Source: Frateuria sp.
GTDB lineage: Bacteria; Pseudomonadota; Gammaproteobacteria; Xanthomonadales; Rhodanobacteraceae
Assembly: GCF_035943815.1 (NCBI RefSeq)
Contig: NZ_DASZBU010000018.1
Coordinates: 23,353 to 87,352 of the forward strand
Length of the DNA: 64,000 bases
Reading direction: 5' to 3'
Below the pieces are notes generated by a model that worked only from the letters and a program-made list of their open reading frames with translations, did not search any database and was not told where the DNA came from. Of the stretch, positions 9,675 to 61,084 are shown piece after piece (the first letter of the stretch is position 1; the number at the start of each line of letters is the position of its first letter). Position numbers and translations under genes: made by a program.

Positions 9675-9854
9675 CGGGGCCTGAGCCCCTTCCTGGCTGG
9701 AGCAAAACACCTCCTTGGCCCGGCCCGGTGATGGCCGGCAAGCGGTTATGCGGCCAGTCGCCGCAATGGCTGCACCGCGATCGCTATCGGCCGGAGGCGT
9801 TCTTTTGTCCGTCGGGTGCTGAACGGGCTCCCGGAAACCTCACTTGCGCCCGCT

Positions 9855-12560
9855 ATGATCGATGCGCCCCGCGTGACCGGTCAGGGCGGGGCCTGCCGAG
9901 GGGGATTCGTGCCACCTAAACCGATCGACGAGCGTCACCGCACACCGCACGCCGCCGCCCCGGAGGCGTTGCCGCTGGCTAGCCGGGTGCCAGGCGTGGC
10001 CTGGGGGCTGCTCGTGGTCGGCTGCGGGATTCTGCTGACGCTCTGGCTTTACCGTGTCCAGGCGCGGCAGTGGCAAGCGGCGCGGCATGATGCCGTGGTG
10101 GCGGAAGCGGAGAAAGGGCTCGTCCAGTTGAGGGCGAAGCTGCGCTCGGCCGAACTGCTGGTGCGGTCTTTGCAGACGATGTTTCTGGTCGCCGGTGATA
10201 TGGATGAGCACCAGTTCGCACGCGCGTACGCCAACCTGGACCCGCGCCGGGAGTTCCCCAGCCTGCTGGCCGTGGCGTATTCGGTTCGCGTGCATGGGCA
10301 CGACGGCGATCATTTCCCGACCACGCTGGTCGCGCCCTTGGATGGCAACCGCAAGCTGCTGGGGTTGGACGTGGTCGACCAGCCGGCCAACATGAAGGCG
10401 CTGGCCGAGTCGCGAGATACCGACCATCTGGCCGTGTCGGAACCGTTTCCGCTCGTGCAGGACACGGGTTCCCACGGACGCGGGCAGGGCATCACGTTGC
10501 GGTTGCCCGACTACGGGCCTGGCGCTTCGCTCGACTCGCTGGCTGTGCGCCGGCAACGGTTGCGTGGATCGGTCGCGGTTTCGTTCCGGGTTGCCGACCT
10601 GATCCGGACCGGCTTGCCGGCGCAGCTATTGCAGGTGGCGGGCATCTCAGTCACGGACGTCGCCCGGGCATCGCGCGTTCCCCTGTTCGATTCGGGCACC
10701 GGCGTGCCCTGGACGAAACCCTCGATCGTTTATCGCATAGCGTTCGGGGGGCGCCTGTGGGAGATGGCCGTCTTTCCGGGATCGACCAGCGACCCCTCCT
10801 GGTCGCAGTCGGTGGTGCCCCCTGGGCTGCTGGTCAGCGTATTGCTTGGCCTGCTGGTATGGTCGCTGACCGACACGCGGCGCCGTGCCGTGCAACTGGG
10901 GTGGCGCCTGGGTGAGCGCTACCGCGAAAGCGAGGAGCGCTTTCGCACGCTCAACGAACTGCTGCCCGCGCTCGTGGTGCTTGCCGACGCCGCCGACGGG
11001 CGCATCGTCTACGCCAACCAGGCCGCGCGCGGACGATTGGGAGAGGGCATCCAGGGAACGCGGTTGGGTTCGCTGTTGGGGATGGACGAGAGCGAGGTGG
11101 AGCGGCGCCTGGCCAATCCGCAGGCCGGTGCGACCGAGGTGGGCCTGCGCGACACGGCCGGCGGACGTTTCTGGGCCAGCGTGGCGATCTCCTGGCTGAT
11201 GCTCGAGGGTCGCCCCCAGTGGGTGATGGTCGCCAGTGACGTGACCGAGCAACGCGCGCTGACCGAATTGCTCGGTTACCAGGCGACGCACGACGAGCTC
11301 ACGGGCCTGATCAACCGGCGTGAGTTCGAGCGTCGCCTGCAGCGGATGACCCAGGACATGGGCGAGTCACCGCCTTATGCCGCGGTGCTCTTCATCGACC
11401 TGGACCAGTTCAAGCTCGTCAATGACACATCCGGGCATGTGGCAGGTGATCAGCTTTTGCTGCAGTTGGCGACAGTGATGCGTGCGAGGCTGGGCGAAGA
11501 GCATGTACTGGCGCGGCTGGGCGGTGACGAGTTCGGCGTGATCCTGGCGGGGCTGGACACGCCCGGGCGCGCGGTGGAGCTGGCCGAGCATCTGCGTCTG
11601 GGGCTGGACGGTTTCGTCTTCGTCTGGGAAGCCAAGAGCTACATGGCGAGCATCAGTGTGGGCGGCGTACTGGTCGATCGCCCGGGGATGCCACTGGCCG
11701 AGTTGCTCGCCGCCGCCGATACCGCCTGCTACATGGCCAAGGAGCAGGGGCGCAACCGCGTGCACTTCTACTCCGAACGGGATGAGCAGAGCGCGCTGCG
11801 GCGCGGCGAGATGGAGTGGGCCAATCGGTTGCGCTGGGCGGTACAGGAACAGCGCTTCGTGCTGACCTACCAGGAGCTGCGTGCGCTCGGCGCGGAGCCG
11901 TCGGCGATTCATGTGGAGCTGTTGCTGCGCTTTCGCAATGAACTGGGCGAGCTGGTGTCGCCCGGCGCGTTCATTCCCGCGGCGGAACGCTATGGCCTGA
12001 TGCCGCTGATCGATCGCTGGGTGATCGAGACCGCGCTGGCCAACGTCGATCGGCTGCATCCGGCGGGGGCGGCGCTGCGCATGGTGGCGGTCAACCTGTC
12101 CGGTGCCAGCATCGACGATGACACGCTGGCCGAGCGGATCGTCGAACTGCTGCGCCTGCACCAGGTGGCGCCCGAGCGCGTCTGCTTCGAGATCACCGAG
12201 ACGGTGGCAGTACGCCAACTGACCGACGTGATCCGTTTCGTGACCCGGCTGAGGGAGGCTGGCTGCCATGTCGCGCTGGACGATTTCGGCGTGGGCATGT
12301 CGTCGTTCTCCTACCTCAAGCATCTGCCGGTGGACATCGTCAAGATCGATGGCAGCTTCATCCGCGACATGCTGAGCGACCCGATCAGCCACGCGATGGT
12401 GCGCGCGGTGACCGACATCGCGCACCGGCTGGGCCTGGTGGTGATTGCCGAATGGGTGATGGACGAGGCGATCATGGGGTCGCTGCGGGAGCTGGGGGTA
12501 GACATGGCCCAGGGCTATGCACTGCACCAGCCCGAGCGCGTCATGTGGCAGCGCGACTGA
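9855..12560 (+). CDS. CHASE-TM-PAS-GGDEF-EAL c-di-GMP signalling protein
   Basis: Periplasmic CHASE-like segment between two TMs. GGDEF motif in RLGGDEFGVIL. EAL-domain motifs are FEITE, DDFGVGMSSFSYLKHLPVDIVKIDGSF, EWV and QGY. The start is uncertain (ATG at 9855 versus GTG at 9816). Confidence 0.9.
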   Translation: MIDAPRVTGQGGACRGGFVPPKPIDERHRTPHAAAPEALPLASRVPGVAWGLLVVGCGILLTLWLYRVQARQWQAARHDAVVAEAEKGLVQLRAKLRSAELLVRSLQTMFLVAGDMDEHQFARAYANLDPRREFPSLLAVAYSVRVHGHDGDHFPTTLVAPLDGNRKLLGLDVVDQPANMKALAESRDTDHLAVSEPFPLVQDTGSHGRGQGITLRLPDYGPGASLDSLAVRRQRLRGSVAVSFRVADLIRTGLPAQLLQVAGISVTDVARASRVPLFDSGTGVPWTKPSIVYRIAFGGRLWEMAVFPGSTSDPSWSQSVVPPGLLVSVLLGLLVWSLTDTRRRAVQLGWRLGERYRESEERFRTLNELLPALVVLADAADGRIVYANQAARGRLGEGIQGTRLGSLLGMDESEVERRLANPQAGATEVGLRDTAGGRFWASVAISWLMLEGRPQWVMVASDVTEQRALTELLGYQATHDELTGLINRREFERRLQRMTQDMGESPPYAAVLFIDLDQFKLVNDTSGHVAGDQLLLQLATVMRARLGEEHVLARLGGDEFGVILAGLDTPGRAVELAEHLRLGLDGFVFVWEAKSYMASISVGGVLVDRPGMPLAELLAAADTACYMAKEQGRNRVHFYSERDEQSALRRGEMEWANRLRWAVQEQRFVLTYQELRALGAEPSAIHVELLLRFRNELGELVSPGAFIPAAERYGLMPLIDRWVIETALANVDRLHPAGAALRMVAVNLSGASIDDDTLAERIVELLRLHQVAPERVCFEITETVAVRQLTDVIRFVTRLREAGCHVALDDFGVGMSSFSYLKHLPVDIVKIDGSFIRDMLSDPISHAMVRAVTDIAHRLGLVVIAEWVMDEAIMGSLRELGVDMAQGYALHQPERVMWQRD

Positions 12561-20999: not shown

Positions 21000-21545
21000 T
21001 CACACCTGCGGCTTGCGACGAGTGCGCTTCCTTGTCGCGGCCGCGCCCAATGGAGCCGCGGAGCCCGCGTCACCCAACTGCTCCATCCACGCCAGGTCAT
21101 CGACGTAGGCGAGAAACGACCGCAGATAGTCCGGCGACAGCTCGCGCATCAGCGCGATGGCTCGGCTGGCCAGCGCGGTGGAGTTGAGCGGGCCGGCATC
21201 GGTGGGGGCGTGGGCGAGGGATTGCTGGAGCTGGCTGTCGGTGCGCAGGGTGGACCAGAGCTGGCGAAGGCCGACGAGCGCGGGTAGGTTCGGGTAGGCG
21301 CCGCGCTCCGTGCTTGCCTCGCGGTCCAGGCGTTCTACCAGTTCGCGCAGCGGACCCGGATGCGTCGGAGTGGCGTCGCGGGCGGATGTTTCGTCCCGCG
21401 CATCGGCATCGGGCGTTCGCAGTTCGGCCAGACGCGCATCCAACGCGCGTCGCGCTTCGCCGTCGAGGCTCGCGGCGCGCTGTTCCATGGCCGCGATCAG
21501 GTGCGCGCGGATGGCCGAGGCGATGTCAGGGCGCATGGCCGGCAT
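21000..21545 (-). CDS. Small helical protein (resembles DUF2894), fourth gene of the stator-like operon
   Basis: Overlaps the MotB-like stop; the ATG is at 21545 or 21536. The sequence is Ala/Arg/Leu-rich and helical. The family name is from memory only. Confidence 0.55.
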   Translation of the reverse strand: MPAMRPDIASAIRAHLIAAMEQRAASLDGEARRALDARLAELRTPDADARDETSARDATPTHPGPLRELVERLDREASTERGAYPNLPALVGLRQLWSTLRTDSQLQQSLAHAPTDAGPLNSTALASRAIALMRELSPDYLRSFLAYVDDLAWMEQLGDAGSAAPLGAAATRKRTRRKPQV

Positions 21546-22191
21546 CGGTGCCGTTCGGTGTGGCGTTGGCGGCCGACGAGCGGGGGATCGGAGCAATCTC
21601 CACGCGGCGGTTCTTCGCCCGGCCGGTTTCATCCGTGTTGGTGCTGACCGGCTGCTGCGCGCCGAAGGCGGCGGCGAAGACCGCGTCGGCGGGCACGCCG
21701 GCGGCGATCAGCGCGCGGGTGACGGTGAGCGCGCGCTGGGCGGAGAGCTCCCAGTTGTCGGCGAACTGGCGGTTGTCGCCGTGCACGGGCCGGTCGTCGG
21801 TGAAGCCGCTGACCATCAGCAGCTCGTCGCGCGACTGCAGGTACTGCGCCAGCGGCGCGGCGAGACTCTGCACGAGCTGGCGGCCTTCCGGCTGCAGCTG
21901 GTCGGAATTGAGCGCGAACAGCAGGCTGCCGCGGATGCCGATGCGGCCGTTGACCAGGGTCACGCGGCCCTGCGCCAGCGGCGTTGCCAGCGCCTGTTCC
22001 AGCGTGGTGCGGCGTTGCAGTTCGGCCTGGCGCTGCTTCTGGGCCACCTCCAGCTTGTGCGAGAGCTGCAGCTGCACGCCGATGACGCCGACCAGGATCA
22101 GCACGAACGCGCCCAGCAGCACCGACATCAGGTCGCCGAAGGCCCAGATCGGCGCGGTCGACTCGGCGTCGAACTCGACCTCGTCGCTCAT
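21526..22191 (-). CDS. MotB/OmpA-like peptidoglycan-binding stator subunit
   Basis: N-terminal TM with an invariant-type Asp (IWAFGDLMSVLLGAFVLIL). C-terminal OmpA-like motifs are FALNSDQL, SGFTDDRPV, NWELSAQRA and NRRVEI. The ATG overlaps the upstream stop (ATGA). Confidence 0.85.
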   Translation of the reverse strand: MSDEVEFDAESTAPIWAFGDLMSVLLGAFVLILVGVIGVQLQLSHKLEVAQKQRQAELQRRTTLEQALATPLAQGRVTLVNGRIGIRGSLLFALNSDQLQPEGRQLVQSLAAPLAQYLQSRDELLMVSGFTDDRPVHGDNRQFADNWELSAQRALTVTRALIAAGVPADAVFAAAFGAQQPVSTNTDETGRAKNRRVEIAPIPRSSAANATPNGTDAGHAP

Positions 22192-24287
22192 GCCTTCGCC
22201 GCCTTACCGCCCGGCGCGCGGCGGCCGGCAAGCTGCTGCATGTCGGCGATGATCTGCTGCTGCGAGAGCACGCTGAGCTCGACCACTTCCCTGGCCTGCG
22301 CCACGTAGTAGGCGAGTTGCTCGTCGCTGCGCGCGAGCGAGGCGTCGAGCGCGCCGGCGATCTGCTGCAGGCGTTCCATCAGCGCGTCGTTGGCCTGGCC
22401 GAACTGCGCCACGCCCGCGCCGAAGGCTTCGCCCAGGCTGGCGACTTCGACGGCGCCGGCGGCGACCTGCGCCGCGGCGGTGTCGAGCTTGCCGGCCTCC
22501 GCTTCGACCTGCGCGGCGAAGCGGCTGCCGACGCGGTCGAGCAGCTCGGCCGAGGTGCCGACCAGCGCGTCGATCGCGCTGCGCTGTTCGGTGGAGGCGT
22601 GGTTGACCGCCTCGAGCAGGGTTTCCAGGGTGGCCAGCAGGCGGCTGCGTTCCTCCAGCATGGCGGTGTCGCGCACCATGCTGTCGGAGAGCTTCTGGCG
22701 CAGCTCGCCGACGACTTCGGCGGCGACGCGCGGTGCTTCCGACGCGGCCTCGACCAGGCGGGCGATCTCGGCGAGAGTCTGGCTGGCATGGGCCTGGGTA
22801 CGCGCCACCACGGCGCCGGCGGTCTGCTCCAGCGTGTCGCAGATGGCCTGCTGGCGGCTCGCGGTGGCTTCGCCGGCCGCGTTCCATCGAGCGGCGAGGT
22901 CCGCGGTGATGGCGTCGAGCTTGTGCGTCCAGGCGGCCAGGCGCTCCTCGTCTCGTGATTGGAGTGCCGACTGCAGTTGCGCGTGCGAGCGGTCGACCGC
23001 CTGCACCAGCGCGGCCGCGTGCGACTCGAAGCTCGCGCCGGCGGCGGCAAGCGCCTGCCGGTTGCGCTCGGCGAGCCCGGCGTGCACGGCGTCCTGCTTG
23101 GACAGCGCGCTCTGCCATGCCTCGGCCGCGCGGTCGGCGCTCGCGTCCAGGCGCGTGGCGACGCCGGCCAGCAAGGCGGACGAGCGTTGCTCGAAGGTGT
23201 CGGCGAAGCGGGCCAGGGTGTCGCCCAGCGCCTGCGCGTGGGCCTCGTTGGTCTGCCGATGGTGGGCGAGCGCATCGTTCCATATGCCGGTGACGGTGCG
23301 CGCGGTGGTGTCGAAGCCGGCCGCCAGGCCGTCGAGCTGGCGTTGTACGGCCTCGCCCACGCTGGCCTGGATCGCGGCGCTCTCGCGGGCAAGGCTGGCC
23401 AGGGTGGATTCGACCACCGGCTGCAGCACGCCGGCGGCGGTGCGCGCACTGTCGGCCACGCTGGCCTGCAGCGACTGTTCGACCGAGCGGGCCAGGCGCG
23501 TATAGGCCTCCTCGGTGTGGCGGTGGAAGGCCGCGCGGTCGGCGGACTGGCGCTCGTGGGCGGCGGCGCTTTGCTGCTCCAGCGTTGCGGCCATCGCCTG
23601 CAGGCGGTCGACCAGAGCGGGCATCGCCGCGGCCTGCTGCTGCAGCAGGCGCAAGGCCTCCTCGCGCCGGTGTGCCTGCGAATGGATGCGCAGGGTGGTG
23701 GCGATGGCCGCGTCCAGCGCGTGCACCACCTGCAACCGCTCCCAGCGGACCAGCGCGGAGAGCAGGCCGAGCATCGCCGAGCTGGCGACGCCGGCGATGG
23801 AGGTGCCGAAGGCGAAGGCCAGTCCATTGACCGGCGCGGCCAGCGAGCCGCGGATCGCCTGCAGGTCGCTGGCGCTGCCGAGCGCCGTGCCGGTGCCGCG
23901 CAGCGTGGCCATCATGCCCAGCAAGGTGCCGAGCATGCCCAGCAGTACCAGCAGGCCGACCAGGTAGGGCGTCATCGCCGGCGCCGGCAGCGCGGCACGC
24001 TCGCCTTCGACGCGCAGGCGCACGGCGTGGCGCAGGCCGGGAGCCAGGCGCTCCAGCCAGCGGCCGAGCTCGGCCGGCGGCTCGGCCAGTTCGTCCACCG
24101 CCTGGCGCAACGTGGCGGTGGCCTGGCGGTAGCGGAACAGCTCGAAGGCACCGGCGAGGTAGCAGGCGCCGATCAGCAGGGCGACGGCCAGGCCGAGCGG
24201 ATTGCTGCCGACGTAACCGGCGACGATCCAGCCGATGGCGACCAGGCCCAGCGCGAACACGCAAAGAAGGAGCAGACGTTTGAACAT
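22188..24287 (-). CDS. MotA/ExbB-like channel domain fused to a ~490-aa Ala-rich coiled-coil tail (resembles DUF802)
   Basis: ORF trimmed to the ATG at 24287 (MFKRLLLLCVF). Four TMs. The second pair, YLVGLLVLLGMLGTLLGMMATL...VNGLAFAFGTSIAGVASSAMLGLL, matches the MotA_ExbB signature. The rest is repetitive helical sequence. Confidence 0.75.
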   Translation of the reverse strand: MFKRLLLLCVFALGLVAIGWIVAGYVGSNPLGLAVALLIGACYLAGAFELFRYRQATATLRQAVDELAEPPAELGRWLERLAPGLRHAVRLRVEGERAALPAPAMTPYLVGLLVLLGMLGTLLGMMATLRGTGTALGSASDLQAIRGSLAAPVNGLAFAFGTSIAGVASSAMLGLLSALVRWERLQVVHALDAAIATTLRIHSQAHRREEALRLLQQQAAAMPALVDRLQAMAATLEQQSAAAHERQSADRAAFHRHTEEAYTRLARSVEQSLQASVADSARTAAGVLQPVVESTLASLARESAAIQASVGEAVQRQLDGLAAGFDTTARTVTGIWNDALAHHRQTNEAHAQALGDTLARFADTFEQRSSALLAGVATRLDASADRAAEAWQSALSKQDAVHAGLAERNRQALAAAGASFESHAAALVQAVDRSHAQLQSALQSRDEERLAAWTHKLDAITADLAARWNAAGEATASRQQAICDTLEQTAGAVVARTQAHASQTLAEIARLVEAASEAPRVAAEVVGELRQKLSDSMVRDTAMLEERSRLLATLETLLEAVNHASTEQRSAIDALVGTSAELLDRVGSRFAAQVEAEAGKLDTAAAQVAAGAVEVASLGEAFGAGVAQFGQANDALMERLQQIAGALDASLARSDEQLAYYVAQAREVVELSVLSQQQIIADMQQLAGRRAPGGKAAKA

Positions 24288-24298
24288 GGGGAACCGCG

Positions 24299-24958
24299 TC
24301 AGGGGGTGCGAAGCGCCGCGAGCAGCGCGTCGACCGGTTGGAAACGAAGATCCAGCTCCGCCAGCAACACGCTCTGCATGTCGCGGCGGAAGCCATCGAG
24401 CCACGGGGTGGAGGCCTGCCCGGCGGCACGCAGGCGTTCGAAGCGCCGGCCCAGCAGCTCGGTCACCTGGGCGAGCAGGGCGTGCTCGCGCGGGGTGAGG
24501 GCCGCTTCCATCACCGCATCCACCTCGGCCAGTCGCGCCATGTCGGGCGAAGCCTGGGCGAGCGCGTCACGCAGCGTGCCGCGCAGGCGGCCGACGGTGG
24601 CCTGCATGGTGCGCTGGCGGGCGAGGCAAAGCTGGCGGAAGGCGGCGTAGTCGGGTTCGGCCGGCGCCGATGCCCGGGCGGCGAGCAGCGGATCGTCCTT
24701 GATCGCCGTGGCCAGCACCTCGCGGGCCCGTTTGCATTGCCCGTGCAGGTCCTCTGGCGCCGGTGCGTCCACCGTGGGCGCGACCGGCCGGCCGTCGAGC
24801 GCGGCGGCGAGCGAGAGCGCGTGCTTCCAGTCCAGCCACTGGCCCAGTCGGTCGGGCAGCGACTGGCCGGATGCGGCCACGTCGACCTCTGCCAGGCGCG
24901 CCAGCAAACGAATGAACGTGGGCCCGCGAACCGTCGGGCGGAGTGCAGCTTGCGCCAT
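24299..24958 (-). CDS. Small helical protein (resembles DUF3348), first gene of the stator-like operon
   Basis: 219-aa ORF whose stop lies 11 nt before the next start. The family name is from memory only. Confidence 0.55.
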   Translation of the reverse strand: MAQAALRPTVRGPTFIRLLARLAEVDVAASGQSLPDRLGQWLDWKHALSLAAALDGRPVAPTVDAPAPEDLHGQCKRAREVLATAIKDDPLLAARASAPAEPDYAAFRQLCLARQRTMQATVGRLRGTLRDALAQASPDMARLAEVDAVMEAALTPREHALLAQVTELLGRRFERLRAAGQASTPWLDGFRRDMQSVLLAELDLRFQPVDALLAALRTP

Positions 24959-25161
24959 GTTTTCCGGAGCAAAACCGGCAGTTTAGCGCGGCAGCGGTCC
25001 GGCGTGGCGCTCCCCCTGTACCGCCCTTTTCTTCGGCGCCGTCCGGGGAGGATCGGACGTGGCGCCGCGAGCCGCAGGGCGCCGGGCATGAAAGCGGTGC
25101 TGCGGTAGGAGCGGGAATGAACCTACCGGTCCGGCCCTTTGCCACCGGCCTGCGGGTAAGG

Positions 25162-26085
25162 CTAGAAGGCGTACTCCGCCGAGATGCCCGCGCCGCTGTC
25201 GTGCAGGTAGACCGCGTTGCCGTCCTCGCGGCTGCGCTCGTCCTGCGCGAACTCGGTGTGGAAAATGTAGGCAGCGAAACGCCAGTGCGGGTTCGCCCGG
25301 TAGGCCAGGGCGACTTGTTCCTCGCTGTCGGTCTGCGCCAGGCGCACTTCGCCACCTTCGGTGCGCAGGCTGTTTACCCACGGCAGGCGGCCCCAGCTGG
25401 CATCGGCCGTGAGCTGCAGGGCATCGCTGAGCGGGTAACGCAGGTGCAGCCCCAGCATGGGTACGGGAAGCTCCTGTACGTAGAAGTCTTCCTTCAGCTC
25501 GTGGCCGGGGCTGTCCGCGGCGATGGTGCCGTCCAGCTTGAAATTGAGCATGACGTAGCGGGCGCCCAGGCTGCCCCACAGGCTGCCGCCGCTGCCCACG
25601 TCCGCCAGGCGGCGCCAGTAGCTCGCGTCCAGTTCGATGAAATCCTGGAAGTGGGTGACGGTATCCAGCCGGCCGGGCGCCACCTTGGTGCCGTTGAAGT
25701 AGACCGGGGCGGCGAACCGGGCGCTGCCGTCCAGGCGATGGGTGGTCAGCCCCAGATGCAGTTCGCCGGCTTCGCCCAGCGGCGTCCAGGCGAGCACTCG
25801 CAACGACTGCATGTGACCGGCCCGGAGATCGTCGTTCAAGCGCAGGCGCGTGGTGGGCACGTCGTTCTCGCGTACCCGGATCCAGCCGCCGGTCCAGCCT
25901 TGTTGGGCGGCCAGCGCCACATGCCAGTCCGTGGCATGCAGCGGGCCGCAGCCCAGCGCACCGGCGAGCAGCAGGGAGAGCACCTGCAGGCGCCTGCTGC
26001 TTCGTCCGCAGGCGCCTGCAGATGCATCGGCGACGCGGTGCAGTCGCCGCCCGACGCGCGGGAACGAGGGCGCCTGCCTGCGCAT
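25162..26085 (-). CDS. Outer-membrane beta-barrel protein (hypothetical)
   Basis: Alternating-hydrophobicity strands and a C-terminal ...GISAEYAF ending in Phe. A signal-like LQVLSLLLAGALGCGPLHA is present. The N-terminus is uncertain. The start lies 1 nt after the cytochrome b stop. Confidence 0.6.
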   Translation of the reverse strand: MRRQAPSFPRVGRRLHRVADASAGACGRSSRRLQVLSLLLAGALGCGPLHATDWHVALAAQQGWTGGWIRVRENDVPTTRLRLNDDLRAGHMQSLRVLAWTPLGEAGELHLGLTTHRLDGSARFAAPVYFNGTKVAPGRLDTVTHFQDFIELDASYWRRLADVGSGGSLWGSLGARYVMLNFKLDGTIAADSPGHELKEDFYVQELPVPMLGLHLRYPLSDALQLTADASWGRLPWVNSLRTEGGEVRLAQTDSEEQVALAYRANPHWRFAAYIFHTEFAQDERSREDGNAVYLHDSGAGISAEYAF

Positions 26086-26086
26086 C

Positions 26087-26653
26087 TCACAGCATCCTGC
26101 GCAAGGTGTTGTCGCGCACGATGAAGTGGTGCCACAGGGCCGCGGCGACGTGCAGGCCGATGATCCAGTAGAAGATTTCGCCGATGGCCTCGTGCAGTTC
26201 CCCGATCCGCTCGTGCCACGTGGCGTCCGGCGGGACCAGCGACGGCAGCGACCATCCCAGCACGGGCAGCGTCACCCTGTCGCCGGCCAGGTCGACCTGC
26301 ACAATGCCCAGCAGCGGTTGCACAAGCAGGAAGGCGTAGAGCGCCAGGTGGGTGATCCGGGCGACCAGGTGCGTGAACCGTCCCGGAGCCGGCTGGATCG
26401 GGGGAAATCGTCCGATCGCCAGGACCGGCAGGCGGACCAGCAGCAGGAGCAGCACCAGCAGTCCGGCAAGGTAGTGCCACTGCAACGCCGCGCTGGGGCC
26501 GCCGGCCTCCTTGTCTTCGCCGCCGAATTCGACCAGCAGGTAGGCGGCAAACACGGCGAGCACGGTGAGCCAATGCGCAGCGCGCACGAGGGCGGGGTAG
26601 CGGCTGCGCGTCGCGACCCGAGCGGGGGTTCCAGTTCCGATGGTCGCGCTCAT
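26087..26653 (-). CDS. Cytochrome b561-family membrane protein (CybB-like)
   Basis: Four TMs with conserved His residues (AAHWLTV, LQWHYLAG, THLALYAF, GLHVAAALWHHF). The ATG overlaps the peroxidase stop (ATGA). Confidence 0.8.
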   Translation of the reverse strand: MSATIGTGTPARVATRSRYPALVRAAHWLTVLAVFAAYLLVEFGGEDKEAGGPSAALQWHYLAGLLVLLLLLVRLPVLAIGRFPPIQPAPGRFTHLVARITHLALYAFLLVQPLLGIVQVDLAGDRVTLPVLGWSLPSLVPPDATWHERIGELHEAIGEIFYWIIGLHVAAALWHHFIVRDNTLRRML

Positions 26654-27687
26654 GGGTTCGGTTGCGGCGTAGTGGCCACGCTCGGTGGCAGGATCGGGAG
26701 GGTCACCTGCGGCTGGTCACCGGTGAGTGCGCCGAGGAAGGCAGTGATGCGGTCGACCTCCGCGTCGGTGAGCTTTGCACCGAGCTGGCTGCTGCCCATC
26801 ACCGCGACCGCCTGGCGCAGGTCCCATACCTTGCCGGAATGGAAGTACGGCGGCGTCAGCGCCACGTTGCGCAGCGACGGCACGCGGAAGACGTACTCGT
26901 CGCTGACCGTCTTGGTGACGGCGAAGCGTCCCTTGTCGCCCGGCGGCAGGATGTCGGCGCCGGGGCGTTCCACCACGCCGAACGGGGCATACCGGCCGCC
27001 GCCGACGTTGATGCCGTTGTGGCACGCGGCGCAGCCCTTGTCGATGAACAGGGCCAGGCCTTGCATCTGCTGGGCGTCGAGCGCCTTGCCGTCGCCCTTG
27101 AGGTAGCGGTCGAACGGCGCGTTCGGGGTGATCAGCGTGGCCTCGAACAGGGCGATGGCGCGGCGGACATTGTCGAAAGTGATCGGATCGCTGCCGCCGA
27201 AAGCCTTCGCAAAGAGCGGTGCGTAGCCGGGAATGCCCTTCAATTGCTCGACCACGTGCGTGGCTGTGGCGTCCATCTCGATCGGGTTGACCAGCGGTCC
27301 GCCGGCCTGCTGCTCGAGGTCCTTGGCGCGGCCGTCCCAGAACTGGGCGACATCGAAGACCGCGTTGTACACCGTCGGCGCGTTGCGTCCGCCGTGTTGC
27401 CAGCGGTGCCCGAGCGACGTCTGCTGCAGGTCGACCCCGCCCATGCCGATCATGTGGCACGAGTTGCAGCTGATCGCGTGACTCTCGGACAGACGGGGGT
27501 CGAAGTAGAGCATCCTGCCCAGCGCCGTCCTGGCCGGCGAGGCGGGGTTGCCGGGCAGTGCCGGGGGCTGGGTCGGGATCGGCTTGAACAGGCCCCGAGC
27601 CTGCGCCACCCGGTCCGCCTGCGCCCAGGCCGGCGCCGTGCAGGCACCTGCCAGGACCAGACAGGAGACCAGCGTGAACGGTCGCAT
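26650..27687 (-). CDS. Di-haem cytochrome c peroxidase (CCP/MauG family)
   Basis: ORF trimmed to the ATG at 27687 (AAGGAGA upstream) and has a signal peptide. Two CxxCH motifs (CNSCHM, CAACHN), plus FRVPSLRNV and PYFHSG. Confidence 0.9.
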   Translation of the reverse strand: MRPFTLVSCLVLAGACTAPAWAQADRVAQARGLFKPIPTQPPALPGNPASPARTALGRMLYFDPRLSESHAISCNSCHMIGMGGVDLQQTSLGHRWQHGGRNAPTVYNAVFDVAQFWDGRAKDLEQQAGGPLVNPIEMDATATHVVEQLKGIPGYAPLFAKAFGGSDPITFDNVRRAIALFEATLITPNAPFDRYLKGDGKALDAQQMQGLALFIDKGCAACHNGINVGGGRYAPFGVVERPGADILPPGDKGRFAVTKTVSDEYVFRVPSLRNVALTPPYFHSGKVWDLRQAVAVMGSSQLGAKLTDAEVDRITAFLGALTGDQPQVTLPILPPSVATTPQPNP

Positions 27688-31487: not shown

Positions 31488-32345
31488 TCAGCCTTCGGCC
31501 AACGCCGCTTCGCGCCCCTGCTGGCGGATGGCCGCTTCCTCGCGGGCATCGATGATGGACTGCATCACGCTGTCGACGTCGACGATGCCTTCGTCGAACG
31601 CGAAGCGCCCGGTCAGTTCGCTCTCCGGCTGCAGCTCACCTTGTTCGAACAGCGCCCACATTTCCTCGGCGTAATACGTATCGAGGAGTTCCGGGGCGAA
31701 GCGCGAGAGGTTGATGGTGATGTTGCTCACGTCGCGCCGCAGCATGGTGCGGGCGGCGTTGTTGCCGGAGGCGCTGACCACTTGGGGCAGGTCGATGATC
31801 ACCGGGCCGTCGGGCGCCACCAGGACGTTGTACGGGGAGAGGTCGCCATGGATGATGCCGACGCAAAGCATGCGCACGATCTGGCGGATCAGGATGCCGT
31901 GGTATTCGCGGGCGAGGTCGGCGGACAGCTCCACCTCGCCCAGCCGCGGGGCCGAGTGGCCGTGGGCGTCGGTGATCAGCTCCATCACCAGCACGCCGTT
32001 GAAGTAGCCGTGAGGCTGCGGCACGCGCACGCCGGCGCCGGCGAGCAGATACAGCGCGTCGACCTCGGCATTCTTCCAGGCCGCTTCGGCCTCCTTGCGG
32101 CCGAACTTGCTGGCCTTGCCGATCGCCCGCGCCTGCCGGCTGCCGCGCACCTTGCGACCTTCCTGGTATTGCACGCGCTGCTGGAAACTGCGCTGGGCCA
32201 TGTCCTTGTAGACCTTGGCGCAGCGCACGTCCTCGCCGGAGCGAACGATGTAGACGGAGGCCTCCTTGCCGCTCTTGAGCGGACGCAGGACCTCGTCGAT
32301 GACGCCGTCGTCGATGAGTTCGAGCAAGCCGGTGGGGGTTTTCAT
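31488..32345 (-). CDS. RIO1-like atypical protein kinase
   Basis: VLRPLKSGKEASVYIV, CAKVYK, GVLVMELI, IIHGDLSPYNVLV and VIIDLPQVV match RIO-type kinase motifs. Confidence 0.8.
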   Translation of the reverse strand: MKTPTGLLELIDDGVIDEVLRPLKSGKEASVYIVRSGEDVRCAKVYKDMAQRSFQQRVQYQEGRKVRGSRQARAIGKASKFGRKEAEAAWKNAEVDALYLLAGAGVRVPQPHGYFNGVLVMELITDAHGHSAPRLGEVELSADLAREYHGILIRQIVRMLCVGIIHGDLSPYNVLVAPDGPVIIDLPQVVSASGNNAARTMLRRDVSNITINLSRFAPELLDTYYAEEMWALFEQGELQPESELTGRFAFDEGIVDVDSVMQSIIDAREEAAIRQQGREAALAEG

Positions 32346-33784: not shown

Positions 33785-34666
33785 CTATTCGCCGCGCACC
33801 GGACTGCCAACGCCTTCGCTACGGCGGTCGCGCTTGGCTTCGTACATCGCTCGGTCCGCGCGTGCCAGGAGCGTGTCCGGGTCGCTCCCGCCGTCCGGGA
33901 AGCAGGCGATGCCTATGCTGGCATCGAGATGGAACGTGCCCTCCGGCAGGTCGAACGGCAGCCTGAGGCAGGCGCGCAGACCTTCGGCCACGGTGCCGGC
34001 GGCCTGCACGTCGCCGCAGCCGGGAAGCAGGGCGACGAACTCATCGCCGCCGATGCGGGCCATCAGGTCGTCCTGGCGCAGGCCCTTGTGCAGGCGCCGC
34101 CCGGCTTCGCGCAACAGGCGGTCGCCCACGTCGTGTCCGTATCGGTCGTTGATGCGCTTGAACCCGTCCAGGTCCAGGTAGAGCACGGCCAGGCCGTTCT
34201 CCGTCCGGGATGCGTGCTCGAGGGCGTACTGCAGTTCGTGCTGCAGCCGGTGGCGGTTGGGCAGCCCGGTGAGCGGATCGTGGGTGGCGCGGTGCTCGAG
34301 TTCGCGCTCGGCGCGGCGCAGCTCGGTCACCTCGTGCGCCACGCCGAGGCGCACGCCGTATTCGGGCAGCCAGCGGGCCGACCACTGGATGTCCACACTG
34401 TGGCCATCCTTGTGGATGTAGCGATTGCGGAAGTTGAGCTGCGGCACCCCGTTCATGACCTTTTCGGCCTGTTGCATGGTCGTCGCGCGGTCGTCGGGGT
34501 GGACTAGCCGGAAGATCGGCTGCCCGATCACCTCCACGGGCGCGTAGCCCAGGATGCGTCCGAAACCCGCGCTGACGAAGAGCACCTGACCCTGGGCGTC
34601 GACGACGCAGACCGCGTCGGGCATCAGGTCCAGCAACTCGGCGGGCGTGGGGAGCTTTGGGATCAT
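33785..34666 (-). CDS. PAS-GGDEF diguanylate cyclase
   Basis: PAS segment LMPDAVCVVDAQGQVLFVSAGF...; GGDEF motif in RIGGDEFVALL. The start is the ATG at 34666; an alternative in-frame TTG at 34786 lies 12 nt past the upstream gene's stop. Confidence 0.85.
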   Translation of the reverse strand: MIPKLPTPAELLDLMPDAVCVVDAQGQVLFVSAGFGRILGYAPVEVIGQPIFRLVHPDDRATTMQQAEKVMNGVPQLNFRNRYIHKDGHSVDIQWSARWLPEYGVRLGVAHEVTELRRAERELEHRATHDPLTGLPNRHRLQHELQYALEHASRTENGLAVLYLDLDGFKRINDRYGHDVGDRLLREAGRRLHKGLRQDDLMARIGGDEFVALLPGCGDVQAAGTVAEGLRACLRLPFDLPEGTFHLDASIGIACFPDGGSDPDTLLARADRAMYEAKRDRRSEGVGSPVRGE

Positions 34667-34798
34667 GAAGGTCAGGGTTCGCGTTTGCAGGCGCAAGGCT
34701 ATCGGTCCCAAGCCAAGCAAGAAAGAGGCCAGCAACTGGCGAGGAACGACGACCCAACGTTGACGCGCATGTGGCCCGCTGCGCAAGGCTCATCCACG

Positions 34799-36472
34799 CT
34801 ACATCGGCCCGCGCTCGACCTGGCGCTCGCGCTGCATCAGCGTCCATTCGGCGTGTTCGGTCAGCGCCGCGTGGCCGAGCGCGCGCAGGATGGCGCGCTG
34901 TTCCGCGGAATTGGCCGCACGGTCCAACGCGGTGCGCGCGGCACCGAAGATGCGTTCCATGAAGCGATACTGCTTGAGCAGCACCTTGTCCGCCTTGCGG
35001 TAGGCATAGGCCTCGCGCACCGCGGCGATGATGGAGAGGATGCCCATCAGCGCCACCAGCGAGCCCTTGATCTGCTCGTCCAGGCGCAGCGCGAAGATCG
35101 CCAGCAGCACGCTGATCGAGACGCCGCCCCACAGGCTCAGCGCGCCCAGGGCTTCGGTGACGCGGTGCAGGCCGGCGCACTCGATGCTCTTGCGCTCGTA
35201 GTAATGCAGCTGGCCGGACCGGCCGGAGCGGCCCACCCATTCGTCGATGACGCAGGCCAGCGCCGCCGCATCGGCCGCGGGCGCGTGGCTGGGAGGCAGG
35301 CCGGCCGCGCGCATGACGTTGCGGATCCAGCCCAGTTCCACGTTCTGCTTCTGCAGGAAATCGTCGTGTGCGAAGGCGTAGTCCCGCGTCAGCGAGATGC
35401 CGGCCCGGCGCCAGTAGGACTGGATGCGCAGGCCTTCGGCCAATGCGCGGTAGTCCAGGTACTTGCGGTGCCAGCCGCGCCGGTTGGCCACGGCGGCGAC
35501 CGCCATGCCCAGCGCGAACAGCACCAGGAACAGATAGATCAGGCCGTTCTGCGCGCGGAAGTGCGCGTAGCAGGTGAAGGCGGCGCCCATCAGCGCCGCC
35601 AGGGTGTAGATGGTGCGCATCGACAACAGCACGCGGCGCTGGTAGTGCACCGCCAGCCAGTCGGCCTCGCGGAAGGTGCGGTCGATGCCCATGTCGGCGG
35701 CGGCATCGCCGGCAGGTGCGGGCGCCGTTCCGATCGCGGCCGCGTGCGCCTTGCAGTCGGCGTTGAACTCGGCCATGTGCTCGAACATCAGCCGGAACAG
35801 CGCCGGCATGGCCGGTTCGGGCGCGTCGGCCGCCGCATGGCACCAGTGCGCCGTCACCGGCGGGCGCTGGCCTTCCGGCACGTCGGCGCGGGCGCAGCGG
35901 ATGTGGAACAGCAGCCGCTCGTCGCCCGCGCCGAGGATGTGGCGCGGGTCGCGCTCCTGGCCAGGCGGCCCGGGCAGGGTGCCGGTAAGGTGGTAGCGCA
36001 CGATCTGCGCGGTGCCGCCGATCCGGTCGGAGGGCTGCTCGTCCCAGATCGCCAGCAGGATGTGGCAATGGCTGGCGATGTACACCCCGGCCTGTGCGTA
36101 CTGCCGGTCGCGCGCGTCGCCGGGGTTGCTGATCTCGTGGCGCGTGTGGCCCTGCCGGGTCGGCAGCACGATCGTCTCGGCCCGCGCGCACAGCGCCTCG
36201 AAGGCCTCGCGCGAGGCGGCACCGGCGAAGTCCTCCTCGTACAGCGCGGGCGGCAGCGGAAGCGGCGCGATGAGCCGCGCGCCGACCCGCAGCCCCTCCT
36301 CGGCGACCAGGCGGTCACCGCCTTCGGCCAGTGCGGAGAGCACGACCAGCGGCAGGCCCGGGAAGGCCTGCTGCAGTTCACCAAGGAACGTGCGCACGCG
36401 CAGGCGGATGGTCTCCGTGTCCCCGGGTGGCAGGTCGCGATGGCTGGTCACGCCGATCACCAGAGGCGTCAT
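34799..36472 (-). CDS. SLOG-like Rossmann domain fused to two 2-TM (SLATT-like) modules; putative signal-gated membrane effector
   Basis: 557 aa; the ATG at 36472 has GGGAG upstream. N-terminal beta-alpha pattern: VIGVTSHRDL, VVLSALAEGGDRLVAEE, ARLIAPLPLP, ILLAIWDEQPSDRIGGTAQIV. Then TM pairs TIYTLAALMGAAFTCYAHF/LIYLFLVLFALGMAVAAVA and ALSLWGGVSISVLLAIFAL/LVALMGILSIIAAV. Each pair is followed by a basic amphipathic segment (WHRKYLDYRALAEGLRIQSYW; YRKADKVLLKQYRFMERIF). The domain names are inferred. Confidence 0.6.
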   Translation of the reverse strand: MTPLVIGVTSHRDLPPGDTETIRLRVRTFLGELQQAFPGLPLVVLSALAEGGDRLVAEEGLRVGARLIAPLPLPPALYEEDFAGAASREAFEALCARAETIVLPTRQGHTRHEISNPGDARDRQYAQAGVYIASHCHILLAIWDEQPSDRIGGTAQIVRYHLTGTLPGPPGQERDPRHILGAGDERLLFHIRCARADVPEGQRPPVTAHWCHAAADAPEPAMPALFRLMFEHMAEFNADCKAHAAAIGTAPAPAGDAAADMGIDRTFREADWLAVHYQRRVLLSMRTIYTLAALMGAAFTCYAHFRAQNGLIYLFLVLFALGMAVAAVANRRGWHRKYLDYRALAEGLRIQSYWRRAGISLTRDYAFAHDDFLQKQNVELGWIRNVMRAAGLPPSHAPAADAAALACVIDEWVGRSGRSGQLHYYERKSIECAGLHRVTEALGALSLWGGVSISVLLAIFALRLDEQIKGSLVALMGILSIIAAVREAYAYRKADKVLLKQYRFMERIFGAARTALDRAANSAEQRAILRALGHAALTEHAEWTLMQRERQVERGPM

Positions 36473-36522
36473 GGAAGCTCCCGGCTCCAGGATGCGCCGC
36501 GCTGGCCGGCGCGTGCCCGCGG

Positions 36523-36550
36523 CCCCGCGCCGCTTGCCGGCGGCGCGGGG
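36523..36550 (-). promoter_or_regulatory. 10-bp GC stem-loop immediately downstream of small ORF B
   Basis: ccccgcgccg / cggcgcgggg with an 8-nt loop and no U-tract. It sits between small ORF B and the SLOG-like gene. Confidence 0.6.
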
Positions 36551-36574
36551 CGAGGGTGCTCAGTTGTTCTTGAT
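36550..36574 (-). repeat. Direct repeat copy B (3' end of small ORF B plus 9 nt past its stop)
   Basis: gcgagggtgctcagttgttcttgat is 24/25 identical to 36789..36813. On the minus strand it encodes ...IKNN*, followed by CACCCTCGC. Confidence 0.85.
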
Positions 36575-36706
36575 CGATGGGTGGGTGGTGGTGTCGGGCG
36601 TCAGCGTGCCGGAGAACTGGGGTTCGGCAAGCGGGGCCTGCTCGTCGGATGGCGAGTCGGGGGTGAGCTCCGGCGTGGGAGCCTGGGGTTCGCGTGGCTG
36701 GGACAT
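36560..36706 (-). CDS. Small ORF B, 48 aa, acidic/Pro-rich, C-terminal tail ...TTTHPSIKNN
   Basis: The ATG at 36706 has GGAGG 5 nt upstream. It shares its C-terminal tail and 3' flank with small ORF A. I recognise no homology. Confidence 0.5.
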   Translation of the reverse strand: MSQPREPQAPTPELTPDSPSDEQAPLAEPQFSGTLTPDTTTHPSIKNN

Positions 36707-36760
36707 GATTGCCTCCGCTGGGCGGGCGGCCGGGGACGGCCGCGGCTTGCGTGTACGTCG

Positions 36761-36777
36761 CGGGCCGTTACGGCCCG
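36761..36777 (-). promoter_or_regulatory. 7-bp stem-loop cgggccg-tta-cggcccg immediately downstream of small ORF A
   Basis: Perfect inverted repeat read directly, with no U-tract. Confidence 0.55.
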
Positions 36778-36788
36778 GTGACGCGGGC

Positions 36789-36813
36789 GCGAGGGTGGTC
36801 AGTTGTTCTTGAT
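36789..36813 (-). repeat. Direct repeat copy A (3' end of small ORF A plus 9 nt past its stop)
   Basis: gcgagggtggtcagttgttcttgat is 24/25 identical to 36550..36574. Confidence 0.85.
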
Positions 36814-37167: not shown

Positions 37168-37207
37168 GGCGTTCTCCTTTGCTGGCGGGGGGAAATCGCG
37201 GTGTTCT

Positions 37208-56674: not shown

Positions 56675-56766
<92 letters not shown>

Positions 56767-60884: not shown

Positions 60885-60961
60885 TGGCGGAGCGGACGGG
60901 ACTCGAACCCGCGACCTCCGGCGTGACAGGCCAGCATTCTAACCGACTGAACTACCGCTCC
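60885..60961 (-). tRNA. tRNA-Asp (anticodon GTC)
   Basis: 77 nt: GGAGCGGTAGTTCAGTCGGTTAGAATG...CCTGTCACG...GGTTCGAGTCCCGTCCGCTCCGCCA. Confidence 0.95.
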
Positions 60962-61075: not shown

Positions 61076-61084
61076 GGGTAAGAT

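What the first reader, a model, noticed from the sequence alone, without database searches (positions are those of the whole stretch)
21000..24958. Translationally coupled four-gene operon encoding a MotA/ExbB-like channel with a very long coiled-coil tail plus a MotB-like partner (ZorAB-like architecture) and two small helical proteins
Seen in the sequence:
- 22188..24287 encodes ~699 aa. It has four TMs carrying the MotA_ExbB signature (LLGMLGTLLGMMATL...GLAFAFGTSIAGVASSAMLGLL), followed by ~490 aa of Ala/Gln/Arg-rich repetitive helix.
- Its stop overlaps (ATGA) the start of a 221-aa MotB/OmpA-like protein. That protein has the conserved TM Asp (FGDLMSVLL) and a peptidoglycan-binding domain.
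- The MotB-like stop overlaps the start of a ~180-aa helical protein.
- A 219-aa helical protein ends 11 nt before the channel gene.

Established knowledge: MotAB/ExbBD/TolQR are ion-driven motors. In the Zorya anti-phage system, ZorA is a MotA-like protein with a long helical tail and ZorB is its MotB-like, PG-anchored partner, and the sizes are similar to those here.

From memory, the three non-OmpA proteins resemble DUF3348, DUF802 and DUF2894, for which I know of no assigned function.

Inference: this is a PG-anchored, ion-driven motor with a long cytoplasmic lever and two unknown clients. It lacks the large ZorC/D/E-type effectors, so it is either a different output for a Zorya-like motor or an envelope-stress or mechanosensing device.
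Basis: partly seen in the sequence, partly recalled or inferred. Interest (0 to 1): 0.72.

Follow-up and report, generated by a model that had tools for sequence, protein, structure and literature searches.

The report
Type III Zorya anti-phage operon
This is an ordinary copy, in a Frateuria genome, of the already described type III Zorya anti-phage system: a cell-wall-anchored membrane motor protein with a very long cytoplasmic tail, plus two small helper proteins whose job nobody has yet worked out.

Summary
Four tightly packed minus-strand genes lie at 24958..21000: DUF3348 (219 aa), a DUF802 protein (699 aa), an OmpA/MotB-like protein (221 aa) and DUF2894 (178 aa).

PADLOC profiles identify them as ZorG3 (5e-79), ZorA3 (E=0, full length 1-696/698), ZorB3 (1e-111) and ZorF3 (8e-51). 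They sit in the canonical zorGABF order.

This is Zorya type III. Payne et al. 2021 named it, counted 6,401 instances, and showed that the Stenotrophomonas nitritireducens system protects E. coli from phage.

The missing ZorC/D/E is simply what defines type III.

What I added:
- The four-gene set keeps its order in 79 of 81 loci from Xanthomonadales and Burkholderiales. The other two lack only ZorF.
- No fifth gene recurs next to it, so no nuclease is encoded.
- In Frateuria it is syntenic and has diverged as much as its flanking genes.
- It occurs on ~2-Mb secondary replicons but not in phage records.
- ZorG is predicted as a helical bundle with no known fold match. ZorF is poorly predicted and carries a conserved basic C-terminal tail.
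- The ZorA tail shows coherent 3.67-residue hydrophobic periodicity.

The mechanism of ZorF and ZorG remains unknown. Already known; low interest.

The parts
24299..24958 (-). zorG in PADLOC-DB naming (DUF3348 protein, 219 aa). It is the first gene of the operon. Payne et al. 2021 call the DUF3348 protein ZorF in their text.
   Evidence: Pfam DUF3348 7e-71 over 1-217. PADLOC ZorG3 5.2e-79. AlphaFold2 mean pLDDT 80.9: a helical bundle (H68-87, H104-136, H138-180, H185-217) with a low-confidence but sequence-conserved N-terminus. No PDB fold match, best E=0.66.
23733..24287 (-). zorA head (residues 1-185). It has four hydrophobic segments. The TM3/TM4-equivalent region carries the invariant polar residues T121, T162 and S163.
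   Evidence: Hydropathy. Invariant columns. Weak but concordant hits all fall within residues ~105-251: PADLOC ZorA2 1e-6 and ZorA1 8e-4, NCBIfam antiphage_ZorA_2 5.4e-7 below cutoff, PDB 8vvn_C (annotated as a MotA/TolQ/ExbB proton channel domain protein; I take it to be a type I ZorA) E=0.011 at 109-179, Pfam MotA_ExbB E=0.17.
22188..23732 (-). zorA cytoplasmic tail (residues 186-699 plus stop). It is Ala/Leu/Gln/Arg-rich with only 4 prolines, contains two DUF802 stretches, and has a strongly conserved last ~220 residues.
   Evidence: PADLOC ZorA3 E=0, profile 1-696/698. Pfam DUF802 1.8e-26 with 2 stretches. Hydrophobic periodicity of 3.67 residues: power 3.2 against a maximum of 1.77 in 500 shuffles. 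Mean pairwise identity is 73% for the tail tip and 55% for the tail middle.
21526..22191 (-). zorB (221 aa). It has one TM helix carrying Asp20 (FGDLM), a charged linker of about 35 residues, and an OmpA-type peptidoglycan-binding domain. Its start overlaps the zorA stop (ATGA).
   Evidence: PADLOC ZorB3 1.2e-111. NCBIfam PRK09040 8e-111. Pfam OmpA 8e-19. PDB MotB/PomB periplasmic domains 7e-15 to 1e-11. The FGDLM or FADLM motif is present in 77 of 80 loci and NRRVE in 80 of 80.
21000..21536 (-). zorF in PADLOC-DB naming (DUF2894 protein, 178 aa). It is the last gene and overlaps zorB by 11 nt. It ends in a basic tail, TRKRTRRKPQV.
   Evidence: Pfam DUF2894 3.9e-37. PADLOC ZorF3 7.9e-51. AlphaFold2 pLDDT 52: helices joined by low-confidence linkers. 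A K/R-rich C-terminus is seen in all 13 sampled loci. The family has 1,942 clusters, and the best 150 are all 101-295 aa stand-alone proteins.
24959..25161 (-). 203-nt intergenic region upstream of zorG. This is the presumed promoter region of the operon.
   Evidence: Position only. The sigma-70 consensus scan found nothing here, which says little for a 68% GC genome.

Best explanation
The locus is a complete, canonical type III Zorya anti-phage system (zorG-zorA-zorB-zorF) on the chromosome of a Frateuria species.

Shown by profile matches and synteny: it belongs to the family.

Inferred from the solved type I system (Hu et al. 2024; Mariano et al. 2025):
- ZorA and ZorB form a 5:2 inner-membrane complex.
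- ZorB's OmpA domain grips peptidoglycan.
- Protons passing ZorB Asp20 and the ZorA TM3/TM4 polar residues drive ZorA, with its roughly 75-nm helical tail, around ZorB.
- The motor engages only when phage entry perturbs the envelope.

Inferred here: ZorG and ZorF are non-enzymatic helical partners of the tail, not nucleases. My best guess for the output has low confidence, about 0.3 for this step. ZorF, whose divergence tracks the tail and which carries a conserved basic C-terminal tail, would dock on the acidic tail tip. Together with ZorG it would bind or trap incoming phage DNA near the entry site. Any degradation would then be left to host nucleases, because the module encodes none.
For: - PADLOC ZorA3 E=0 (full length), ZorB3 1.2e-111, ZorF3 7.9e-51 and ZorG3 5.2e-79.
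- Pfam DUF3348, DUF802, OmpA and DUF2894.
- The order G-A-B-F on one strand matches the published canonical zorGABF order. It holds in 79 of 81 loci.
- The zorA/zorB ATGA overlap is present in 57 of 80 loci.
- The ZorB Asp motif is present in 77 of 80 loci and NRRVE in 80 of 80.
- ZorA T121, T162 and S163 are invariant.
- The tail has coherent 3.67-residue hydrophobic periodicity.
- The type III system from S. nitritireducens reduced plaquing in E. coli (PMC8565338).
- zorG3 and zorF3 are up-regulated by phage in S. maltophilia.
- No recurrent fifth gene lies within 7 kb in 80 loci.
- ZorG has no enzyme fold. ZorF is always small and stand-alone among the best 150 family representatives.
- The ZorA tail tip has net charge -11 and the ZorF C-terminal tail +6.
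- ZorF divergence tracks the tail: partial r is 0.54-0.59, against 0.28-0.40 for ZorG.
Against: - No experiment exists on this locus.
- The only functional test of type III that I found is heterologous inducible expression of one system.
- The 5:2 stoichiometry, rotation and envelope sensing are extrapolated from type I. Type I is very distant: the PDB ZorA chain matches at E=0.011 over 70 residues only.
- The head seems to have four hydrophobic segments, against three TM helices in ZorA type I.
- The ZorF model has low confidence.
- The co-variation hint uses non-independent pairs, and proteins with similar evolutionary rates correlate anyway.
- The proposed DNA-trapping role of ZorF and ZorG has no direct support.
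Confidence: 0.85

Rival explanations
1. This is a type III Zorya system, but the output is abortive. ZorF and ZorG gate the ZorAB channel, and on infection the complex leaks protons. The membrane depolarises and the infected cell stops growing or dies. This is the original hypothesis of Doron et al. for Zorya.
For: - No nuclease or other enzymatic effector is encoded in or next to the module in 80 loci.
- ZorG and ZorF have no catalytic fold.
- Payne et al. reported liquid-culture protection only at MOI below 0.1, and proposed ZorF and ZorG as regulators of ZorAB activity.
Against: - For type I the abortive model was refuted experimentally.
- Type I also protected mainly at low MOI, so that phenotype does not discriminate.
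- A roughly 515-residue tail whose tip is as conserved as the motor is hard to justify for a simple gated leak.
Confidence: 0.2
2. The four genes are primarily a resident envelope device, for stress sensing or mechanosensing, in Xanthomonadales and Burkholderiales. Phage protection on over-expression in E. coli would be a side effect.
For: - The locus is syntenic in Frateuria, and the Zor proteins have diverged about as much as the flanking genes. In L002 the flanks are 85-98% identical and the Zor proteins 84-95%.
- Clustering of ZorA head plus ZorB separates the beta and gamma classes, with no cross-class nearest neighbours.
- The context is ordinary metabolic and regulatory genes. No tRNA gene lies within 30 kb. 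PADLOC gave only weak or generic hits to the 10 other window proteins I scanned.
- There are 135 hits on ~2-Mb Ralstonia secondary replicons and none in 50,697 phage records.
- The motor, tail tip and ZorB are highly conserved, at 73-74% mean pairwise identity across two classes.
Against: - There is direct experimental evidence of anti-phage activity.
- zorG3 and zorF3 are induced by phage in S. maltophilia.
- Mariano et al. describe a strain-variable distribution typical of defence systems.
- Two distinct lineages coexist within Dyella and Rhodanobacter, and flanks differ between genera.
- I could not measure presence or absence across genomes.
Confidence: 0.1
3. It is a paralogue of a housekeeping 5:2 motor, either a flagellar MotAB/PomAB stator or ExbBD/TolQR.
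For: - ZorB matches MotB and PomB periplasmic domains and NCBIfam MotD/MotB models below their cutoffs.
- ZorA shows a four-segment hydropathy pattern like that of MotA (the MotA topology is from my own knowledge).
Against: - Pfam MotA_ExbB is not significant (E=0.17).
- All MotB-type NCBIfam hits are far below their cutoffs, whereas PRK09040 and ZorB3 are far above.
- No flagellar, TonB or Tol-Pal genes are adjacent.
- A 515-residue tail and the DUF3348 and DUF2894 partners are absent from those systems.
Confidence: 0.02

Closest known systems
Zorya type III (zorGABF), defined by Payne et al. 2021 (PADLOC; PMC8565338). The tested example is from Stenotrophomonas nitritireducens DSM 12575.
   Same: - Same four families: ZorA3/DUF802, ZorB3/OmpA, DUF2894 and DUF3348.
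- Same gene order and strand, and the same tight coupling.
- Same taxonomic range. Mariano et al. list Xanthomonas, Stenotrophomonas, Burkholderia, Ralstonia and Paraburkholderia.
- Full-length profile matches.
   Different: Only the host differs (Frateuria, Rhodanobacteraceae), together with sequence divergence. Against the Stenotrophomonas loci retrieved here, identity is about 54-71% for ZorA, 71-76% for ZorB, 40-52% for ZorF and 47-55% for ZorG. This copy has the short tail class (699 aa), against up to 1,207 aa in Achromobacter. It has not been tested.
Zorya type I (E. coli EcZorI and Shewanella ZorAB; Hu et al. 2024 PMC11946911; Mariano et al. 2025 PMC11890865)
   Same: - A MotA-like ZorA with a cytoplasmic helical tail of about 500 residues.
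- A ZorB with the essential TM Asp and a peptidoglycan-binding domain.
- Conserved polar residues in the two ZorB-facing ZorA helices.
- A conserved tail tip.
   Different: - No ZorC or ZorD, so no DNA-binding EH-motif protein and no helicase-nuclease. Two small helical proteins take their place.
- Sequence similarity is confined to about 70 residues (E=0.011).
- ZorA here has four hydrophobic segments, against three TM helices in type I.
- ZorB here has no cysteines, as in 67 of 80 loci. ZorB type I needs two disulfides.
- No Ca2+-site or fatty-acid-site equivalents could be checked.
Flagellar stator MotAB/PomAB
   Same: An inferred 5:2 ion-driven motor architecture. The B subunit has a TM Asp and an OmpA-like peptidoglycan-binding domain.
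   Different: There is no flagellar context. Pfam MotA_ExbB is below threshold. No MotB plug motif was tested. A huge C-terminal tail takes the place of the rotor-facing MotA cytoplasmic domain.

Membership tests
Zorya type III | ZorA3: a MotA-like membrane head plus a long helical tail (DUF802) | tested here: met
   PADLOC PDLC00649 E=0, 1089 bits, query 1-696 against profile 1-696/698. Pfam DUF802 1.8e-26.
Zorya type III | ZorB3: a MotB-like protein with a TM Asp and an OmpA-type peptidoglycan-binding domain | tested here: met
   PADLOC ZorB3 1.2e-111. Pfam OmpA 8e-19. Asp20 lies in FGDLM and the NRRVEI motif is present.
Zorya type III | A DUF2894 protein and a DUF3348 protein flank zorAB, in place of ZorC/D/E | tested here: met
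   Pfam DUF2894 3.9e-37 and DUF3348 7e-71. PADLOC ZorF3 7.9e-51 and ZorG3 5.2e-79.
Zorya type III | Canonical gene order zorGABF on one strand | tested here: met
   The order on the minus strand is DUF3348, ZorA, ZorB, DUF2894. The published order is in Hu et al.. The same order holds in 79 of 81 loci.
Zorya type III | Protection against phage infection | not testable with these tools
   Shown only for the S. nitritireducens system expressed in E. coli (PMC8565338). This locus is untested.
5:2 ion-driven rotary motors (the MotAB/ExbBD/TolQR/ZorAB superfamily) | A5B2 stoichiometry, with A rotating around B | not testable with these tools
   No multimer prediction was available. This is inferred from the type I and type II cryo-EM structures.
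5:2 ion-driven rotary motors (the MotAB/ExbBD/TolQR/ZorAB superfamily) | Recognisable MotA/ExbB/TolQ channel domain in the A subunit | tested here: inconclusive
   Pfam MotA_ExbB gives E=0.17, 12.1 bits, against a cutoff of 22.9. Concordant weak hits fall within the same ~105-251 region: ZorA1 and ZorA2 profiles, NCBIfam ZorA_2 and PDB 8vvn_C.
Zorya type I / type II | ZorC plus ZorD (type I), or the ZorE HNH nuclease (type II), encoded next to zorAB | tested here: not met
   The operon ends at zorF. It faces a convergent AHSA1 gene downstream, and an OMP, cytochrome b561 and peroxidase cassette lies upstream. No recurrent extra gene lies within 7 kb in 80 loci. ZorA1 and ZorA2 profiles match only weakly.
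Flagellar stator MotAB | Match to MotA and MotB equivalog models, and a flagellar gene context | tested here: not met
   NCBIfam MotB, MotD and MotS models score 48-95 bits against cutoffs of 250-312. No flagellar genes are nearby.

The most novel reading that the evidence does not exclude
Type III Zorya may be a Zorya with no nuclease of its own, and one that behaves more like a resident chromosomal gene set than a mobile defence island. In Xanthomonadales and Burkholderiales it looks vertically inherited: syntenic, co-diverging with its flanks, on chromosomes and chromids but not in phage records. Its only cytosolic components are two non-enzymatic helical proteins. The rotating tail would then have to produce immunity, or another envelope-linked output, without a dedicated DNA-cutting effector. 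It could do so by trapping DNA through the basic ZorF tail, or by recruiting host enzymes.
Probability: 0.25. Interest if true: 0.6.

Novelty: already known. Interest (0 to 1): 0.2.

Why it matters
As a discovery it matters little. The architecture was named in 2021, is found by standard defence-system finders, and occurs thousands of times.

Its remaining value is as a reminder that type III is the least understood Zorya. It has a motor, a tail and two small proteins of unknown function, but no recognisable effector. It also seems to be inherited more like a resident gene set than like a mobile island.

Working out what ZorF and ZorG do would show how a rotating cytoplasmic tail can produce immunity without its own nuclease. 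This short-tailed Frateuria copy (699-aa ZorA) would be a compact construct for such work.

Tried and rejected
- Sequence and profile searches of ZorG and ZorF against all PDB chains found nothing meaningful. The single-sequence ZorF search gave only chance-level hits (E about 1) and the others gave none, even at E up to 10.
- A Foldseek search of the ZorG model against PDB gave only generic helical bundles (best E=0.66). I rejected it as evidence of function.
- The ZorF model was too poor (pLDDT 52) to justify a fold search.
- A profile of the ZorA alignment against PDB found nothing.
- A search for a conserved fifth gene or effector in the flanks of 80 loci found only generic LysR (15 of 80 loci) and short-chain dehydrogenase-like (8 of 80) neighbours, on variable sides and strands.
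- The promoter and terminator consensus scan was uninformative.
- Self-BLAST of ZorA found no internal repeat.
- The exact-protein contig look-up returned only one 7.5-kb contig.
- A mirror-tree co-variation analysis gave a hint that ZorF tracks the tail. The pairs are not independent and evolutionary rate is confounded, so I use it only as a lead.
- UPGMA clustering is not a proper phylogeny.
- I considered and rejected flagellar-stator and ExbBD/TolQR membership.

Full report
**Observation**

The minus strand between 24958 and 21000 carries four tightly packed genes.
- A 219-aa protein at 24958..24299.
- After an 11-nt gap, a 699-aa protein at 24287..22188.
- A 221-aa protein at 22191..21526, whose ATG overlaps the previous stop as ATGA.
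- A 178-aa protein at 21536..21000, whose start overlaps the previous gene by 11 nt.

Third-position GC is 0.81-0.93 in all four. Pfam assigns DUF3348 (7e-71), DUF802 (1.8e-26, two stretches), OmpA (8e-19) and DUF2894 (3.9e-37).

There are three small corrections.
- Pfam MotA_ExbB does not reach significance on the head domain (E=0.17).
- The tail is about 515 residues.
- The tail shows no internal repeat by self-BLAST.

**Identity**

PADLOC-DB profiles match all four proteins as type III Zorya components.
- ZorG3: 5.2e-79.
- ZorA3: E=0, with the query aligned 1-696 to a 698-position profile.
- ZorB3: 1.2e-111.
- ZorF3: 7.9e-51.

Type I and type II ZorA and ZorB profiles match only weakly. NCBIfam places ZorB in PRK09040, far above its cutoff, and keeps it far below the cutoffs of all flagellar MotB-type models.

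Payne et al. 2021 defined Zorya type III as zorAB flanked by a DUF3348 and a DUF2894 protein. They counted 6,401 instances. They showed that the Stenotrophomonas nitritireducens DSM 12575 system lowers plaquing efficiency and prevents culture collapse at low MOI in E. coli (PMC8565338). Hu et al. 2024 give the canonical order as zorGABF, which is the order here. Mariano et al. 2025 list Xanthomonas, Stenotrophomonas, Burkholderia, Ralstonia and Paraburkholderia as the main hosts.

The ZorA protein of the window is identical to an NCBI protein from a Frateuria sp. metagenome-assembled genome. The host is therefore a member of the Rhodanobacteraceae, inside the known range.

**Comparative anatomy**

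A scan of one genome per species returned at least 578 relatives, and I kept 80 loci.
- All four genes occur in the order G-A-B-F on one strand in 79 of 81 loci. The other two lack only ZorF, and I attribute this to contig ends.
- The zorA/zorB ATGA overlap is present in 57 of 80 loci.
- The ZorB transmembrane Asp motif (FGDLM or FADLM) is present in 77 of 80, and the OmpA motif NRRVE in 80 of 80.
- ZorB has no cysteine in 67 of 80 loci. ZorB type I, by contrast, depends on two disulfides.
- In ZorA, T121, T162 and S163 are invariant. They lie in the two helices that align to the ZorB-facing helices of a solved MotA/TolQ/ExbB-domain chain, 8vvn_C, which I take to be a type I ZorA.
- Hydropathy gives four hydrophobic segments, and the flanking basic residues fit an N-in topology. 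This resembles MotA, which has four TM helices (my own knowledge), more than ZorA type I, which has three. This is an inference.

**The tail**

Residues about 186-699 are Ala/Leu/Gln/Arg-rich with four prolines. Hydrophobic residues show one coherent periodicity of 3.67 residues over the whole 514-residue stretch. The power is 3.2, against a maximum of 1.77 in 500 shuffles. This is what a long amphipathic helix packed in a bundle would give, and it argues against disorder.

Homologues range from 695 to 1,207 aa by insertion of extra tail segments, so the window copy is in the shortest class.

Mean pairwise identity over 51 loci is as follows.

| Part | Identity |
|---|---|
| ZorA head | 73% |
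| ZorA last 220 residues | 73% |
| ZorB | 74% |
| ZorA tail middle | 55% |
| ZorG | 55% |
| ZorF | 47% |

The tip is thus as constrained as the motor. This fits a tail tip that contacts conserved partners, as shown for type I.

**The two small proteins**

ZorG (DUF3348) is predicted with mean pLDDT 81 as a bundle of long helices. Its N-terminal ~60 residues have low confidence but are conserved in sequence. Foldseek finds no significant PDB match (best E=0.66).

ZorF (DUF2894) is predicted poorly, at pLDDT 52, as helices joined by low-confidence linkers. It ends in a basic tail, TRKRTRRKPQV here, with net charge +6. That tail is K/R-rich in all 13 sampled loci.

Neither protein has any relative among solved structures by sequence or profile.

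An exhaustive profile search finds 1,942 ZorF-family clusters. The best 150 are all stand-alone proteins of 101-295 aa, with no fusions to enzymes. No other gene recurs within 7 kb of the module in 80 loci. The module therefore encodes no recognisable nuclease or other enzyme. This is the real difference from types I and II.

**Context and inheritance**

The flanks in the window are ordinary genes.
- Downstream: ArsR-family and AHSA1-family genes, an XRE/DUF805 protein and a YCII protein.
- Upstream: an outer-membrane-like protein, cytochrome b561, a di-haem peroxidase and an M13 peptidase.

No tRNA gene lies within 30 kb. PADLOC gave only weak or generic hits to the 10 other window proteins I scanned.

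Flanking genes are shared only with other Frateuria loci. There the Zor proteins have diverged about as much as the flanks. In L002, for example, the flanks are 85-98% identical and the Zor proteins 84-95%.

Rough clustering of ZorA head plus ZorB separates beta- from gammaproteobacterial copies, with no cross-class nearest neighbours. Two lineages nevertheless coexist within Dyella and Rhodanobacter.

In PLSDB, all 15 listed hits lie on ~2-Mb secondary replicons, and 135 of the 166 matching records are from Ralstonia. The 50,697 phage records hold none.

This looks more resident and vertically inherited than a typical mobile defence island. I could not measure presence and absence across strains.

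**Mechanism**

I take the motor part from type I. There, a ZorA5B2 proton-driven rotary complex is anchored by the ZorB peptidoglycan-binding domain. It is activated by phage-induced envelope perturbation and signals through the tail.

For type III this is an inference. It is supported by the conserved Asp, the polar residues, the OmpA motif and the tail.

For ZorF and ZorG I commit, with low confidence, to non-enzymatic tail partners. ZorF divergence tracks the tail more than the motor: partial r is 0.54-0.59, against 0.28-0.40 for ZorG. This is a weak hint with non-independent data. The basic ZorF tail could bind the acidic tail tip (net charge -11) or DNA.

Two rivals remain. One is an abortive proton-leak output, with ZorF and ZorG as gates. 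The other is a primarily housekeeping envelope role. I found no paper that addresses the type III mechanism. The only native-host data are transcriptional.

**Verdict**

The finding is real and was read correctly, but it is an already known, named and routinely detected system. Interest is low. The open question it touches, how Zorya III works without an encoded effector, belongs to the field rather than to this locus.

Noticed in passing
window 34799..39361 (-): Three co-directional genes lie about 10 kb upstream of the Zorya module. The first is a 717-aa TIR plus TPR protein (37208..39361; Pfam TIR_2 8.6e-14, ThsB_TIR 1.3e-7). The second is a 139-aa ORF overlapping it by 11 nt (36799..37218, no family). 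The third is a 557-aa protein with a just-sub-threshold DUF4231 hit (34799..36472; 23.7 bits against a cutoff of 24.7). PADLOC gives only a weak SAVED_TIR hit (1.5e-4). This could be a second, unclassified TIR-based conflict locus.
   Followed up: partly
window 25162..27687 (-), compared with L002, L003 and L006: A three-gene cassette sits directly upstream of zorG: a 307-aa outer-membrane-like protein with no Pfam family, cytochrome b561, and a di-haem cytochrome c peroxidase. It is absent or only partly present at the same site in sister Frateuria genomes, which otherwise share the M13 peptidase and XRE/DUF805 flanks. Small indels therefore occur right next to the Zorya module.
   Followed up: partly
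literature and PADLOC-DB; genes at window 24299..24958 and 21000..21536: The names ZorF and ZorG are used inconsistently. The text of Payne et al. 2021 and Mariano et al. 2025 say ZorF is DUF3348 and ZorG is DUF2894. PADLOC-DB models say ZorG3 is DUF3348 and ZorF3 is DUF2894. Hu et al. 2024 write both zorFABG and zorGABF. Annotations should give the DUF number alongside the name.
   Followed up: yes
homologues P0057-P0120 and alignment A1: ZorA3 length falls into discrete classes: about 699, 749, 872, 959, 995, 1045, 1098, 1132 and 1200-1207 aa. The steps between classes are roughly 50-100 residues, through insertion of extra tail segments. The head and the last ~220 residues stay aligned.
   Followed up: partly
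loci L008-L011 against L012, L019, L023, L025, L027, L031 (Dyella); L004 and L007 against L016, L024, L026, L047 (Rhodanobacter): Two clearly different Zorya III lineages occur within the same genera of Rhodanobacteraceae. ZorA is 83-89% identical to the window copy in one lineage and 63-69% in the other. This implies either old paralogy or transfer within the order.
   Followed up: partly
PLSDB hits H1-H15; L082 (Ralstonia solanacearum CP071915.1, 926527..930670): 135 Ralstonia secondary-replicon records carry the same four-gene module, and the listed ones are ~2 Mb. GenBank annotates the genes only as DUF3348, DUF802, OmpA family and DUF2894 proteins. The module seems near-universal in the R. 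solanacearum species complex, and ordinary annotation does not flag it as Zorya.
   Followed up: partly
window 9816..12560 (+), 33785..34786 (-), 31488..32345 (-): Signalling genes are found in the neighbourhood: a CHASE-PAS-GGDEF-EAL protein, a PAS-GGDEF protein and a RIO1-type kinase. There is no evident link to the Zorya module.
   Followed up: no
window 56677..56766 and 60885..61160 (-): A tRNA-Ser(CGA) gene, and a tight tRNA-Asp, tRNA-Glu, tRNA-Ala(GGC) cluster. Both are far from the Zorya module.
   Followed up: no
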